Sequence record: PV691511.1
Strand: one strand, 5' to 3'
Length of the DNA: 64,000 bases
DNA from: Escherichia phage WPEC2
Every line of letters begins with the position of its first letter. The first letter of the stretch is position 1. The notes under the pieces were generated by a model. The model was not told where the DNA came from and did not search any database. It saw nothing but the letters and a program-made list of their open reading frames with translations. A program made the position numbers and the translations under genes. Positions 19,584 to 22,256 of this stretch are shown one piece after another.

Positions 19584-22256
19584 ATGTTTCCAATTCCAAT
19601 ATTTACTATTATGACCAGCACTGGTGTAGTTCCTCTGCCAGCAGGTATTGTTAAAAAAGTAATCACTTTAGATTACCCAGATAATGCTGGTAATTCTAAC
19701 AGTAGTTTAGCAATTTTGCTTAATGATGGTAGATTGTTTACTCAAGGCGCAAACCTTTTTGGTGAGATTGCAGATGGAACTCGTAGTGCACGATTCAATA
19801 ATTTCTACTTAGCTTCTACTGTAGTAGCGGATGTGTTTACCGCAGATCGTTGTTTTGTTATTAAAACTAACAGTGGGGGATGGCAATATTCAGGATTGAC
19901 AGCAGGATTGGTAGGATCTATAGCAGCAGGTGGTACGGATGCATGTGTAACTACTTGGACCAGCTTTCCATCTGTGATAACAGGGACTATCTCTTTAGCC
20001 AATCTTAAAGAGGTTAAGGGAGGATACAACAACACCCTCTGGTTAATGAATAGTGGTGTTCTTTATGGATCTGGTCAAAACACAATAGGTAGTTTAGGTG
20101 CAAGTACTACTAACGAAGTTTCTACTCCTCGTCAGATAACAAGTTCAGCGGTTGCTTTTGATGCAGGTTACAACCAATGTTCTTATGTCAACAATGCTGG
20201 AACCTTGCGTGTTTGTGGAGCCAGTAAAGGTTTAGCAGGTAATAATAACACAACAACAGCTTTTGTCAATGCTACGATATCTGCTACTGAAACAGTGTAT
20301 GTCAAAGATTACATTAATACAGTTTCCCAGACAATAGTTGTAGGAGATACCTCCGGTGGCACGGGTACAGTAAACTACTTATATGTTAGATCTAATACAG
20401 AAACAACTTACACTAAACTGGACACCTTTGCAGCAGGTTTCTCCACATGGAAATTTCCACCAAGCCGCCACTCTTTTTTCGTTGGGATCAATAATTCCTT
20501 GTGGGCTATTGGTAAGAACTATACTGCAAACTTAGGTTTGGGGTATGATTCTGCGAGCGGAGATCCCCTCCAAGTAGGAAAACCAGTTAAACCTGAAGGA
20601 GTGGGTTCCTGGGATATAAATAAGCTCACAAGCGTTCATACGCTGAATATGGATGTTACTAACCAATTAGGTTATCAAGGAACCTTTTTCGTTTATAATG
20701 GAGATATGTATTATTCCGGTATTTGGAAAGATGGGAAAGCCTCGTACCTGTTCAATAGTGGTCTAAACTATAATAAATTCACACCAATAGCAAGCTCTGT
20801 GATTACTGGGGATGTGCTGGCAACTAGCTTAACTACAGATTCTTTAGGAGTTTGTATTGTAGGTGGAACTAAACAGTTGACACATTCTGTTAGCCCAGAA
20901 GGAGGTAAACTTTTCAATATTAAATACACTTCTTCTGCCCCTGCAAACATGACAATATCGTCTACTGGCTTAATGACTTTCCAAGCAGAAGGTGGTTTTG
21001 ATGCAGGTATGACAGCCTTAAACGCTGAAGGAACAACTTTATCAGATACCTCTGGAGGATATGCTTCAACATTAAGTGTTTACACTCCTAGCTTATCTGC
21101 GATGGATGTAGGAACAACACAAACAATGGTAGCAGAAATAACGCCAACAGGAGCAGCAAGCTTATCTGGCATGGTTGTAGAGTATACAACTACAGATCCT
21201 AATGTTGCTACAGTAGATCCTACAACTGGCGTAATAACTGGTGTTGGTGACGGTGGTTGTAGGATTGGTTGCACAGCTACGTATCAAGGTGTTGTTACCG
21301 CTTCTGATAGTTCTTATTTAACGGTGAATGCTGTTGCGGGAAAGGAGTTAGCTCCATCTCCGAGTAGTAGTTTAACGGTTCTAAACGGATATTTCAACCA
21401 CTCGGCAGATGGGGCGATTACGTTCCCAACTTTATCGGGTACTGTCACACCAGCTAACTTTGTAGTTAAGGTGGATGACGTTGTAGTTCCTTCAAGTAAA
21501 GTAATATTTAGAAATAAAGCTTTCTCTACAGTGGATAGTTATCCAGCAGGAGAATATAGACTGGCTATTGAATTTGCAAGTGCTTCAGTAGTTAATACTG
21601 TTGATGTGTCTATGCAAGCAAACCCAGATCTTTTAGAATTATGGGGCGGAAACAGGATTAGTTATTCTACAAGCCCAACCTCACAATTCTTAAAAGGTTG
21701 TGCTAACTTAAGACGAATAACCTCTGATTGTTTTAGTAACACATCTTACACCGGAACATCTATAAGTGGTATCTTCTCTGGCTGCACAAGTTTGATAGCT
21801 ATCCCTGAAGGATTATTCAGTGATACTTTATTTCCTTCGATGACAACAATGTCAAACACGTTTGAAGGTTGTACATCTTTAACATCTATTCCTTCAGATT
21901 TATTTAAGAATCTATCAAAAGTTACAAGATATTCTTACACCTTTAAAGATTGCACCTCGCTTGCAGAAGTTCCAGCAGGAATGTTTGATAATATTCCAAC
22001 TAAAGTGACCTCTTTAACAGCTACATTCCAAGGTTGTTTAGCACTTACAGATTTTAATAAAATCTTTAATGACAACCTAGGGTTAACGGTTTGTGGTCAA
22101 CGTGGAGCATTATCTTCTTTCTTTAGTGGATGCACAAATCTTACAGGAACAGGAGTAACATTAACAAGCACATTAGGTGGAGCAGCTAATAGTTACCTAT
22201 TTAGGTATTGCACAAAACTTTCTGATTATAACAATATTCCTTCGGGTTATAAATAA
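19584..22256 (+). CDS. putative receptor-binding adhesin with BspA-type leucine-rich repeats and Ig-like (Big_2-like) segment
   Basis: 890 aa; C-terminal repeats FEGCTSLTSIPSDLF / FKDCTSLAEVPAGMF / FQGCLALTDF / FSGCTNLTG; central ATYQGVVTASDSSYLTVNAV Ig-like stretch. Confidence 0.7.
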   Translation: MFPIPIFTIMTSTGVVPLPAGIVKKVITLDYPDNAGNSNSSLAILLNDGRLFTQGANLFGEIADGTRSARFNNFYLASTVVADVFTADRCFVIKTNSGGWQYSGLTAGLVGSIAAGGTDACVTTWTSFPSVITGTISLANLKEVKGGYNNTLWLMNSGVLYGSGQNTIGSLGASTTNEVSTPRQITSSAVAFDAGYNQCSYVNNAGTLRVCGASKGLAGNNNTTTAFVNATISATETVYVKDYINTVSQTIVVGDTSGGTGTVNYLYVRSNTETTYTKLDTFAAGFSTWKFPPSRHSFFVGINNSLWAIGKNYTANLGLGYDSASGDPLQVGKPVKPEGVGSWDINKLTSVHTLNMDVTNQLGYQGTFFVYNGDMYYSGIWKDGKASYLFNSGLNYNKFTPIASSVITGDVLATSLTTDSLGVCIVGGTKQLTHSVSPEGGKLFNIKYTSSAPANMTISSTGLMTFQAEGGFDAGMTALNAEGTTLSDTSGGYASTLSVYTPSLSAMDVGTTQTMVAEITPTGAASLSGMVVEYTTTDPNVATVDPTTGVITGVGDGGCRIGCTATYQGVVTASDSSYLTVNAVAGKELAPSPSSSLTVLNGYFNHSADGAITFPTLSGTVTPANFVVKVDDVVVPSSKVIFRNKAFSTVDSYPAGEYRLAIEFASASVVNTVDVSMQANPDLLELWGGNRISYSTSPTSQFLKGCANLRRITSDCFSNTSYTGTSISGIFSGCTSLIAIPEGLFSDTLFPSMTTMSNTFEGCTSLTSIPSDLFKNLSKVTRYSYTFKDCTSLAEVPAGMFDNIPTKVTSLTATFQGCLALTDFNKIFNDNLGLTVCGQRGALSSFFSGCTNLTGTGVTLTSTLGGAANSYLFRYCTKLSDYNNIPSGYK

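What the first reader, a model, noticed from the sequence alone, without database searches (positions are those of the whole stretch)
19584..22256. Large BspA-type LRR / Ig-like adhesin as terminal gene of the late operon
The C-terminal F.GC.SLT.IP..LF repeats typify BspA-like leucine-rich repeats used by bacterial surface adhesins. In a phage this is a candidate receptor-binding or host-surface adhesion protein, distinct from the canonical fiber and tailspike upstream.
Basis: partly seen in the sequence, partly recalled or inferred. Interest (0 to 1): 0.4.

Follow-up and report, generated by a model that had tools for sequence, protein, structure and literature searches.

The report
Modular phage tail adhesin with LRR tip
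The last gene of this E. coli phage's tail-fibre cluster encodes an 890-residue protein (RCC1-like propeller, Ig-like stalk, BspA/TpLRR-type leucine-rich-repeat tip) that is most likely an accessory, swappable host-surface adhesin on the virion; it is a sensible but fairly ordinary candidate receptor-binding protein that nobody has tested.

Summary
The ORF is real and at the stated coordinates (19584-22256, +, 890 aa). The window is a Phapecoctavirus, 100% identical here to Escherichia phage WPEC1. The C-terminal repeats are real. There are seven F-x-(G/D/Y)-C-x-x-L units spaced 26-32 aa apart, against at most 2 in 20,000 shuffles.

The repeats fold as an LRR solenoid whose best solved match is Treponema TpLRR, the BspA-type archetype. 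Direct Pfam scores for LRR_5 and DUF285 are below threshold. Two Big_2 Ig-like domains are confirmed.

The gene is the last one on the + strand of the tail module. A bidirectional terminator follows it and a terminator-like hairpin precedes it.

Relatives keep the N-terminal 584 aa but exchange the C-terminal third at one sharp breakpoint. The alternatives are this LRR, a DUF285 LRR, a domain homologous to solved fibre tips (gp17; RcGTA head-spike fibre), or nothing. The rV5 counterpart, gp27, was detected in virions by mass spectrometry.

Best reading: a low-copy virion adhesin with an exchangeable binding tip. No direct functional data exist.

Novelty: new member of a known kind. Interest: about 0.3.

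The parts
19545..19572 (+). Terminator-like hairpin (GAAGCCCC-GAAA-GGGGCTTT) plus T run, between the collagen-like fibre gene and this gene. Probably an attenuator.
   Evidence: A hairpin sits at the same position, with a different sequence, before the homologous genes of rV5 and PVP-SE1.
19573..19578 (+). Shine-Dalgarno sequence GGAGGG, 5 nt before the ATG.
19584..22256 (+). Complete ORF of 890 aa plus stop codon. Annotated 'tail protein' (PHROG 11922) and called TfpM1 in the literature.
   Evidence: PMC12695924.
19584..20783 (+). aa 1 to about 400: RCC1-like seven-bladed beta-propeller. This is the conserved N-terminal module and the presumed virion-docking part.
   Evidence: Pfam RCC1 22.6 vs 21.7 bits and WD40_RLD E 2e-11. 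AF2 pLDDT is mostly 80-94. Foldseek matches UVR8, RCC1, RPGR and HERC2 at E down to 1.5e-13 with TM about 0.7. aa 1-195 are 39% identical to the rV5 gp27 N-terminus.
20811..21338 (+). aa about 410-585: two Big_2 Ig-like domains forming the stalk.
   Evidence: Pfam Big_2 30.4 vs 22.8 bits, two stretches. AF2 strands. Foldseek match to the LigA Ig-like segment.
21333..21341 (+). Module junction (aa 584-586, ...VNAV|AG...). Homology to relatives carrying other C-terminal cassettes stops here.
21339..21668 (+). aa 586-695: beta-sandwich linker domain. It has no family assignment and travels with the LRR cassette.
   Evidence: AF2 models. Only a weak Gp18_dom_I hint, E 0.03-0.19. Its identity pattern follows that of the LRR.
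21669..22253 (+). aa 696-890: BspA/TpLRR-type leucine-rich-repeat solenoid with seven F-x-G-C-x-x-L units at aa 703-887. This is the presumed ligand-binding tip.
22259..22280 (.). Bidirectional terminator-like hairpin (AAAGGAGCC-ATTT-GGCTCCTTT) flanked by T and A runs. It separates the tail module from the convergent replication module.
   Evidence: Bidirectional terminators are annotated at the same place in rV5 and PVP-SE1.

Best explanation
The gene encodes a low-copy structural protein of the tail-fibre apparatus. It works as an accessory adhesin built like beads on a string.

- The N-terminal RCC1-like propeller is the most conserved part across Phapecoctavirus, 'Wecvirus', Seunavirus (PVP-SE1 gp40) and Vequintavirus (rV5 gp27). 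It docks the protein to the virion.
- Two Big_2 Ig-like domains and a beta-sandwich form a spacer.
- The C-terminal BspA/TpLRR-type LRR solenoid binds a structure on the bacterial surface reversibly. This aids adsorption or tunes host range.
- The conserved receptors of these phages (ECA, LPS outer core) are served by other fibres.
- The binding tip is an exchangeable cassette. Recombination at aa 584/585 replaces the LRR with a DUF285-type LRR, with a gp17-like fibre-tip domain, or with nothing.
- A hairpin just upstream probably attenuates transcription and keeps the copy number low.

Shown here: the domain identities, the position in the genome, the cassette exchange, and the homology of the alternative cassette to solved fibre tips.

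Inferred: presence in the virion (by analogy with rV5 gp27), docking through the propeller, ligand binding by the LRR, and attenuation by the hairpin.
For: - Full-length match to PHROG 11922 'tail protein'.
- Last gene of the tail-fibre locus, directly after a Tail_spike_N tailspike and a Tail_spike_N/collagen fibre.
- The same position and the same bidirectional terminator occur in rV5 (gp27) and PVP-SE1 (gp40).
- rV5 gp27, whose first ~195 aa are 39% identical (E 5e-27), was detected in purified rV5 virions: 3 peptides, 9 spectra, 3.1% coverage (PMC3606486 supplement 5).
- The N-terminal and C-terminal parts have separate histories. P0008-10 are 98-99% identical in the propeller but unrelated after aa 585. 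P0004-7 are 75-76% identical in the propeller but 88-94% in the LRR cassette.
- phiWec186 breaks exactly after aa 584.
- The alternative cassette is homologous to the solved 'tail fiber protein gp17' (9occ, E 2e-20) and to the RcGTA head-spike fibre (6tb9, E 3e-14).
- The LRR fold has TpLRR as its top hit. Homologues include bacterial BspA-family surface proteins and pilin-like proteins.
- A natural in-frame chimera joins the upstream fibre's Tail_spike_N anchor to this beta-sandwich plus LRR cassette.
- Terminator-like hairpins are conserved in position upstream of the gene in three genera.
- phiWec188/190 carry the LRR cassette and need yhaH. phiWec179-186 carry the gp17-like cassette and need flhD. 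This gene is one of only four tail genes that differ markedly between the two groups (PMC12548472).
Against: - I found no virion proteomics, imaging or genetics for this protein in any Phapecoctavirus.
- The rV5 evidence concerns a protein that shares only the first ~200 aa and a weak Big_2 match.
- There is no recognisable fibre anchor (Tail_spike_N) and no trimeric shaft.
- The gene is absent from Justusliebigvirus (phi92) (PMC12695924). The tip is absent in about 570-aa homologues. The protein is therefore dispensable for the basic infection mechanism.
- The yhaH/flhD correlation is confounded. TfpL is 74% identical, the 651-aa protein upstream of the baseplate genes (positionally the tape measure) is 75% identical, and phiWec188 has an extra 688-aa gene.
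- Direct Pfam and NCBIfam LRR scores are below the cut-offs.
- The oligomeric state is unknown. The gp17-like alternative tip belongs to proteins that are trimeric in T7 (my own knowledge), whereas propeller, Ig and LRR domains normally fold as monomers.
Confidence: 0.6

Rival explanations
1. It is a principal host-range-determining receptor-binding protein. Infection of the natural host needs its LRR tip to bind a specific receptor, so it is not an accessory.
For: Wholesale C-terminal cassette exchange is the classic signature of host-range determinants. The phiWec groups that differ in this cassette differ in a required host factor, yhaH versus flhD.
Against: The gene is absent from phi92-like phages, and the tip is absent in about 570-aa homologues. 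Phages of this group share dependence on ECA and LPS core irrespective of the cassette (PMC8594841; waaT and waaG). YhaH is described in PMC12548472 as an inner-membrane protein, so it is an unlikely direct ligand. The correlation is confounded by TfpL and by an extra gene.
Confidence: 0.15
2. It is a virion-displayed adhesin for non-host substrates such as gut mucus, epithelial glycoproteins, extracellular matrix or biofilm matrix. It would hold the phage where hosts live, in the manner of Hoc in the 'bacteriophage adherence to mucus' model, rather than bind the bacterial receptor.
For: The protein combines Big_2 Ig-like domains with a BspA-type LRR. From my own knowledge, Ig-like decoration proteins such as T4 Hoc bind mucin glycans, and BspA of Tannerella binds fibronectin and fibrinogen. 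The gene is dispensable within the subfamily. The phage is of gut or sewage origin.
Against: The gene lies in the tail-fibre locus, not among the head genes. The alternative cassette at the same site is a fibre-tip receptor domain. There are no data on mucin or matrix binding.
Confidence: 0.12
3. It is not a virion adhesin. It could be a non-structural protein, such as an assembly factor for the fibre network, or an intracellular or secreted protein that uses RCC1 and LRR protein-interaction domains. The 'tail protein' label would then be mere annotation transfer.
For: The 'tail protein' name comes from PHROG and Pharokka transfer without experiment. RCC1 and LRR domains are generic protein-interaction modules. 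The upstream terminator suggests expression separate from the fibres.
Against: The rV5 counterpart is present in virions. The cassette exchanges with a fibre-tip domain. The chimera with a Tail_spike_N anchor makes sense only for a displayed module. Synteny at the end of the tail module is conserved over three genera.
Confidence: 0.1

Closest known systems
Phapecoctavirus / 'Wecvirus' TfpM1 ('tail protein', PHROG 11922; e.g. Escherichia phage WPEC1, Mt1B1_P17 gp118, tuntematon)
   Same: It is the same gene: 100% nucleotide identity to WPEC1, WPEC4 and WPEC6 and about 97% to Mt1B1_P17, ESCO5 and AV125. PMC12695924 lists it as a tail fibre protein of 890 or 891 aa that is absent from Justusliebigvirus.
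   Different: Nothing differs in sequence. The published descriptions give no domain analysis, no cassette typing and no function. The 890-aa and 891-aa forms are in fact two different C-terminal cassettes.
rV5 gp27 (1878 aa, 'Ig-like domain-containing protein') and PVP-SE1 gp40 (604 aa)
   Same: Both are the last gene of the tail-fibre locus and are followed by a bidirectional terminator, with a hairpin just upstream. The N-termini are homologous: gp27 is 39% identical over about 200 aa, and gp40 is 38% identical over 582 aa, covering the RCC1 and Big_2 parts. gp27 was found in virions.
   Different: gp27 has about 1,700 aa of otherwise unrelated sequence and no LRR. gp40 ends after the Ig-like domains and has no tip cassette.
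BspA / TpLRR-type bacterial LRR surface proteins (Pfam LRR_5 PF13306; DUF285/PARCEL PF03382, TIGR02167). Solved examples: T. pallidum TpLRR 6mlx, BACOVA_04585 4fs7, EUBVEN_01088 4h09.
   Same: The repeat signature is shared: F-x-G-C-x-S-L-T-x-I-P-x-x-L-F at a period of about 25-29 aa. The solenoid fold matches, with TpLRR as top hit. Sequence homologues pass the LRR_5 or DUF285 thresholds, or are named BspA family.
   Different: This protein itself scores below every curated cut-off. It has only seven units, and the last three are degenerate. It has no signal peptide, lipobox or cell-wall anchor. It is fused to phage-specific modules instead.
Modular phage receptor-binding proteins with exchangeable C-terminal tips (e.g. 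T7-type gp17 fibre tips; branched Tail_spike_N tailspike complexes of Ackermannviridae and phi92)
   Same: A conserved N-terminal part is combined with a horizontally exchanged distal binding domain. One alternative cassette here is homologous to a solved gp17 tip. The gene sits in a multi-fibre 'Swiss army knife' locus.
   Different: There is no Tail_spike_N anchor, no trimeric beta-helix or coiled-coil shaft, and no enzymatic domain. Every domain is of a type that normally folds as a monomer: propeller, Ig and LRR.
Ig-like virion decoration proteins (T4 Hoc, T5 pb10; BAM model)
   Same: It carries Big_2-type Ig-like domains displayed on a dispensable structural protein. From my own knowledge, such domains give weak, accessory adhesion.
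   Different: Those proteins are encoded with the head genes and bind the capsid. This gene lies in the tail-fibre locus and has a dedicated LRR tip.

Membership tests
BspA-type LRR (Pfam LRR_5, PF13306) | Tandem repeats of about 23-29 aa with the F-x-x-C-x-x-L...I-P signature | tested here: met
   There are seven units at aa 703-887, and the central three match the consensus exactly. The count is 7, against at most 2 in 20,000 shuffles.
BspA-type LRR (Pfam LRR_5, PF13306) | Score at or above the Pfam gathering threshold (27.7 bits) | tested here: not met
   The score is 17.8 bits (E 0.0032) on the isolated C-terminus. Nothing was reported on the full-length protein.
BspA-type LRR (Pfam LRR_5, PF13306) | LRR solenoid fold closest to the TpLRR/BspA subclass | tested here: met
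BspA-type LRR (Pfam LRR_5, PF13306) | Significant sequence homology to proteins that are themselves members | tested here: met
   There are 261 homologues at E<=1e-3, many with precomputed PF13306, PF03382 or PF13855 hits. P0044 scores 29.7 vs 27.7 bits for LRR_5. P0058 is named a BspA family LRR surface protein.
BspA-type LRR (Pfam LRR_5, PF13306) | Cell-surface display and ligand or adhesion activity | not testable with these tools
   This needs binding assays.
DUF285 / PARCEL repeat (PF03382, TIGR02167) | Score at or above the curated cut-offs (25 and 30 bits) | tested here: not met
   DUF285 scores 13.8-15.6 bits and TIGR02167 15.2-15.8 bits. Sister proteins P0021 and P0022 carry a genuine DUF285 cassette of 145 bits.
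RCC1-like domain (PF00415 repeat; seven-bladed propeller) | RCC1 repeat above the Pfam threshold | tested here: met
   PF00415 scores 22.6 vs 21.7 bits, which is marginal. phmmer of aa 1-200 hits thousands of multi-repeat RCC1 proteins.
RCC1-like domain (PF00415 repeat; seven-bladed propeller) | Whole-domain model PF25390 above threshold (150 bits) | tested here: not met
   The score is 44 bits, E 2.3e-11.
RCC1-like domain (PF00415 repeat; seven-bladed propeller) | Propeller fold superposable on solved RCC1-like domains | tested here: met
   Foldseek matches UVR8, RCC2, RPGR, HERC1/2 and RCC1 at E 1.5e-13 to 1e-8, with target TM 0.5-0.7 over about 410 columns.
Big_2 bacterial Ig-like domain (PF02368) | Score above the gathering threshold and an Ig-like sandwich in the model | tested here: met
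   The score is 30.4 vs 22.8 bits in two stretches. The model shows two sandwiches at aa 410-585. There is a Foldseek match to LigA.
Phage tail fibre / receptor-binding protein (functional class) | Encoded in the tail-fibre or baseplate locus | tested here: met
Phage tail fibre / receptor-binding protein (functional class) | Present in purified virions | tested here: inconclusive
   The only evidence is for the distant positional homologue rV5 gp27: 3 peptides, 3.1% coverage. I found no Phapecoctavirus proteome.
Phage tail fibre / receptor-binding protein (functional class) | Recognised N-terminal virion anchor (e.g. Tail_spike_N) and a trimeric shaft | tested here: not met
   Neither is detected. 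The N-terminus runs straight into the propeller. Both upstream genes do have Tail_spike_N.
Phage tail fibre / receptor-binding protein (functional class) | Distal domain exchanged horizontally between related phages | tested here: met
   There are four C-terminal states behind one breakpoint at aa 584/585, and the two halves have discordant identities.
Phage tail fibre / receptor-binding protein (functional class) | Binds a host receptor, and mutations alter host range | not testable with these tools
   Only a confounded correlation with yhaH versus flhD dependence is available.

The most novel reading that the evidence does not exclude
The cassette exchange may switch the class of ligand. The LRR tip, which is a protein-binding fold, would target a proteinaceous or even non-bacterial ligand such as a surface or outer-membrane protein, or a mucosal or matrix protein as BspA does. 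The gp17-like tip would target a glycan or the flagellum. The RCC1 propeller would then be a previously unrecognised, monomeric docking module for hanging such tips on the myovirus fibre network. That would define a non-trimeric class of phage adhesin built from 'eukaryote-like' repeat domains.
Probability: 0.15. Interest if true: 0.6.

Novelty: new member of a known kind. Interest (0 to 1): 0.3.

Why it matters
Phapecoctaviruses have among the broadest host ranges of the E. coli phages being considered for therapy and biocontrol. In one collection, AV125 and AV126 had the broadest host ranges of all phages tested (PMC10844046). It is still unclear which gene encodes which fibre, or what each fibre binds (PMC8594841).

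This work gives a domain map and a typing scheme for one of the few tail genes that vary between otherwise near-identical phages:
- LRR cassette;
- DUF285 cassette;
- gp17-like cassette;
- no cassette.

All four states lie behind a single breakpoint at aa 584/585. That offers a ready-made site for cassette-swap engineering and a concrete hypothesis for differences in secondary host factors.

BspA-like LRR proteins are also annotated in many uncultured gut phages, and I found no functional study of them. A tractable E. coli phage example would be useful. None of this is conceptually new.

Tried and rejected
- Direct family assignment of the C-terminus with Pfam or NCBIfam gave only sub-threshold hits. 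I settled the question through structure and transitive homology instead.
- Sequence search of the whole protein against PDB gave only weak hits to a designed LRR, RPGR and UVR8.
- I searched the literature for virion proteomics of phAPEC8 or Phapecoctavirus and for RCC1 or BspA domains in phage tails. Nothing relevant turned up.
- The PVP-SE1 proteome paper is not held in the library.
- I tried to use the phiWec receptor genetics to assign a ligand. I rejected this as proof because TfpL, the 651-aa protein upstream of the baseplate genes (positionally the tape measure) and an extra 688-aa gene also differ between the two phage groups.
- phmmer of aa 1-200 against 1.84 billion representatives was swamped by generic RCC1-repeat proteins. 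Only about 12 true family representatives appeared.
- I considered that the P0040 chimera might be an assembly artefact. The junction has only about 10 nt of imperfect microhomology, too short to collapse a de Bruijn assembly, so I treat it as a real deletion. It was seen on one contig only.
- I considered an enzymatic (depolymerase) role. No catalytic family or fold was hit.
- I considered a gene on the opposite strand. Only chance-sized ORFs of 76 aa or fewer are present.
- PMC12753057 contained nothing on this gene.
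Full report
IDENTITY OF THE WINDOW AND THE ORF

The finding's coordinates match a single ATG-started ORF, 19584-22256 on the + strand, of 890 aa. It is preceded by GGAGGG five bases upstream of the ATG. Megablast shows the stretch is 100% identical to Escherichia phages WPEC1, WPEC4 and WPEC6, and about 96-97% identical to Mt1B1_P17, ESCO5, AV125/126, tuntematon and others. All of these belong to genus Phapecoctavirus, subfamily Stephanstirmvirinae, which are 150-kb E. coli myoviruses. In those records the gene is annotated 'tail protein' or 'hypothetical protein'. It matches PHROG 11922 ('tail protein') end to end. A 2025 paper lists it as 'TfpM1', 890 or 891 aa, present in Phapecoctavirus and the proposed 'Wecvirus' and absent from Justusliebigvirus (phi92). 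That paper gives no domain analysis (PMC12695924).

CHECKING THE OBSERVATION

The C-terminal repeats are real. Seven units matching [FL]x[GDY]Cxx[LM] begin at aa 703, 731, 760, 787, 815, 847 and 873, spaced 26-32 aa apart. The three central units are FSGCTSLIAIPEGLF, FEGCTSLTSIPSDLF and FKDCTSLAEVPAGMF. In 20,000 shuffles of the whole protein or of its last 195 aa the motif never occurred more than twice.

The Ig-like part is also real. Big_2 scores above its Pfam threshold, 30.4 against 22.8 bits, in two stretches.

The positional statement holds. This is the last + strand gene; the next gene lies on the - strand, and GC skew changes sign here. A bidirectional terminator-like hairpin sits at 22259-22280.

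Two things need adding:
- A terminator-like hairpin with a T run (19545-19572) lies in the 41-nt gap directly upstream. No promoter-like site lies between it and the ATG, so the gene must be reached by read-through.

ANATOMY

A full-length AlphaFold2 model built on 37 family sequences has mean pLDDT 84.6. It shows four units:
- aa 1 to about 400: an all-beta propeller;
- aa about 410-585: two Ig-like sandwiches;
- aa about 595-690: a further beta-sandwich;
- aa about 700-890: a solenoid.

Foldseek against PDB aligns the first unit with the RCC1-like seven-bladed propellers UVR8, RCC2, RPGR, HERC1/2 and RCC1. E-values reach 1.5e-13 and target TM-scores are about 0.7. This agrees with Pfam (RCC1 22.6 vs 21.7 bits; WD40_RLD E 2e-11, below its whole-domain cut-off), with PDB sequence hits, and with thousands of RCC1-repeat hits for aa 1-200.

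Direct profile scores for the LRR are below the curated cut-offs: LRR_5 17.8 vs 27.7 bits, DUF285 15.6 vs 25, TIGR02167/PARCEL 15.8 vs 30. I therefore call it 'BspA/TpLRR-type by fold, repeat signature and transitive homology' rather than a threshold-passing member. A search with aa 586-890 finds 261 homologues. Their consensus is F-x-x-C-x-x-L-T-S-I-P-E-G-L-F-x-N-N-x-x-V-T-x-F. Many of them pass LRR_5 or DUF285, and one is named 'BspA family leucine-rich repeat surface protein'. Some homologues are chromosomal bacterial proteins with a pilin-like N-terminus, and others lie on phage-like contigs. BFVD lists many uncultured-phage proteins annotated as BspA-family or LRR proteins with similar folds.

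THE KEY COMPARATIVE RESULT: AN EXCHANGEABLE C-TERMINAL CASSETTE

Relatives retain the N-terminal 584 aa but differ completely after ...SSYL(T/A)VNAV. There are four states:
- (A) beta-sandwich plus this LRR;
- (B) a bona fide DUF285 LRR (P0021, 145 bits);
- (C) an unrelated domain of about 305 aa ending in YYD;
- (D) nothing (proteins of about 565-610 aa, including PVP-SE1 gp40).

The two halves have discordant histories. P0008-10 are 98-99% identical to the window protein in the propeller yet carry cassette C. P0004-7 are only 75-76% identical in the propeller but 88-94% identical in cassette A. phiWec186 aligns at 76% up to residue 584 and not at all afterwards, while its cassette C is nearly identical to that of P0008.

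Cassette C is homologous to two solved structures, 'tail fiber protein gp17' (9occ, E 2e-20) and the head-spike fibre of the Rhodobacter gene transfer agent (6tb9, E 3e-14). So the slot occupied here by the LRR is occupied elsewhere by a recognised fibre-tip domain. This is the strongest computational argument that the LRR is a distal binding module.

Among the phage records, 94 cover at least 80% of the N-terminal 585 aa, and 35 cover at least 80% of cassette A.

SYNTENY AND THE VIRION QUESTION

In rV5 (Vequintavirus) the last gene of the tail-fibre locus is gp27. It is 1878 aa long and is followed by annotated bidirectional terminators. Its first ~195 aa are 39% identical to this protein (E 5e-27), and it has a Big_2 domain. 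In PVP-SE1 (Seunavirus) the last gene is gp40, 604 aa, 38% identical over 582 aa, with the same arrangement.

The mass-spectrometry table for rV5 virions lists locus 27 (1878 aa) with 3 peptides, 9 spectra and 3.1% coverage (PMC3606486, supplement 5). That is consistent with a low-copy structural protein. It is indirect evidence only. I found no proteome for any Phapecoctavirus, and the PVP-SE1 proteome paper is not held.

The terminator-like hairpin immediately upstream of the gene recurs in rV5 and PVP-SE1 at the same position with unrelated sequences. This suggests conserved attenuation of the last gene.

CONTEXT

The two upstream genes are a 1017-aa tailspike with a Tail_spike_N domain, annotated as colanic-acid-degrading in Mt1B1_P17, and a 674-aa fibre with Tail_spike_N and collagen repeats. 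The present protein has no Tail_spike_N domain and no shaft-like region. This supports 'distinct from the canonical fibre and tailspike'. It also leaves its mode of attachment open. I infer that the propeller is the docking module, because it is the only part conserved across all four genera.

FUNCTIONAL HINTS FROM THE LITERATURE

Phages of this group share ECA and the LPS outer core as receptors. Which gene encodes which fibre is 'far from clear' (PMC8594841).

All five 'Wecvirus' phages need waaT. phiWec188 and phiWec190 additionally need yhaH, and phiWec179, 181 and 186 need flhD (PMC12548472). I confirmed that phiWec188/190 carry cassette A, at 90.5% identity, and that phiWec186 carries cassette C.

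Comparing the two tail modules gene by gene, only four things differ markedly:
- this cassette;
- TfpL (74% identity);
- a 651-aa protein upstream of the baseplate genes, positionally the tape measure (75%);
- an extra 688-aa gene in phiWec188.

All other tail genes are at least 95% identical. The gene is therefore one of a few candidates for the difference in secondary host factor. It is not proven to be the cause.

VERDICT

The main correction is that the protein is a four-part protein: propeller, Ig-like domains, sandwich and LRR. Its tip is an exchangeable cassette.

Best explanation (confidence about 0.6): a low-copy, virion-borne accessory adhesin.

Rivals:
- an essential host-range determinant (0.15);
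- an adhesin for non-host substrates such as mucus or matrix (0.12);
- a non-structural protein (0.1).

The gene is already in public genomes and belongs to a familiar kind, the modular phage receptor-binding or adhesion protein. The RCC1-Ig-LRR build and the LRR/gp17-tip alternation are undescribed details, not a new principle. Novelty: new member of a known kind. Interest: 0.3.

Noticed in passing
L004 8001-9191 (Logan SRR10359460 contig, 21.4 kb); corresponds to window 17518-~17736 joined to ~21285-22256: A natural in-frame chimera (P0040, 396 aa; cluster of 11 sequences). The first 73 aa (Tail_spike_N) of the upstream collagen-like fibre are fused to the last ~16 aa of Ig2 plus the beta-sandwich and LRR cassette. 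About 3.5 kb is deleted at an imperfect 10-nt microhomology, CAA(A/G)GTGTTG. If viable, the LRR cassette can be displayed from another fibre's anchor, and the propeller, Ig domains and collagen shaft are dispensable.
   Followed up: partly
window 25729-26463 (- strand), inside the DNA polymerase ORF 24877-28209: The family-A DNA polymerase is 1110 aa, against 865 aa in Mt1B1_P17. The difference is one precise 245-aa insertion (aa 583-827) that begins with Cys and ends ...TGN, followed by Cys. The flanks are 99-100% identical. It looks like an intein, present or absent among close relatives. Pfam reported only DNA_pol_A at E<=0.001.
   Followed up: partly
window 19545-19572; L002 5960-5981 (rV5); L003 5962-5983 (PVP-SE1): A GC-rich hairpin plus T run sits in the short gap immediately upstream of the homologous last tail gene in three genera. 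The stem sequences are unrelated. It is not annotated in the rV5 or PVP-SE1 records, which annotate only the downstream terminators. It is possibly a conserved attenuator that sets low expression.
   Followed up: partly
window 22257-22312, compared with L001 22701-23108 and L007 790-1173: Mt1B1_P17 has a 135-aa 'endonuclease' gene between this gene and the gene annotated as single-stranded DNA-binding protein. phiWec188 also has an extra small gene there. The window has only a 56-nt spacer containing the terminator. This looks like a presence/absence polymorphism of a probable homing endonuclease.
   Followed up: no
P0008 / phiWec186 homologue aa 586-891 (L005 4756-5673): The alternative 'type C' cassette has no Pfam family. 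It is homologous to the solved 9occ 'tail fiber protein gp17' (E 2e-20) and to the Rhodobacter capsulatus GTA head-spike fibre Rcc01080 (6tb9, E 3e-14). This links E. coli myovirus, podovirus-type and GTA fibre tips.
   Followed up: partly
L007 13431-15497 (phiWec188), compared with L006 (phiWec186): phiWec188 has a 688-aa gene in the baseplate/fibre region, equivalent in position to Mt1B1_P17 gp127. This gene has no counterpart in phiWec186. TfpL (74% identity) and a 651-aa protein upstream of the baseplate genes, positionally the tape measure (75%), also diverge, while all other tail genes are at least 95% identical.
   Followed up: partly
P0044 and relatives (ENA metagenome proteins, about 500 aa): The closest non-phage homologues of the LRR cassette have a prepilin/PilX_N-like hydrophobic N-terminus followed by near-perfect 25-aa F-x-G-C-T-G-L-T-S-I-P-E-G-L-F-K-N-N-V-N-V-T repeats. 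This suggests pilus-associated or surface-anchored adhesins in gut bacteria. P0083 lies among housekeeping genes, and P0062 lies on a 157-kb phage-like contig.
   Followed up: partly
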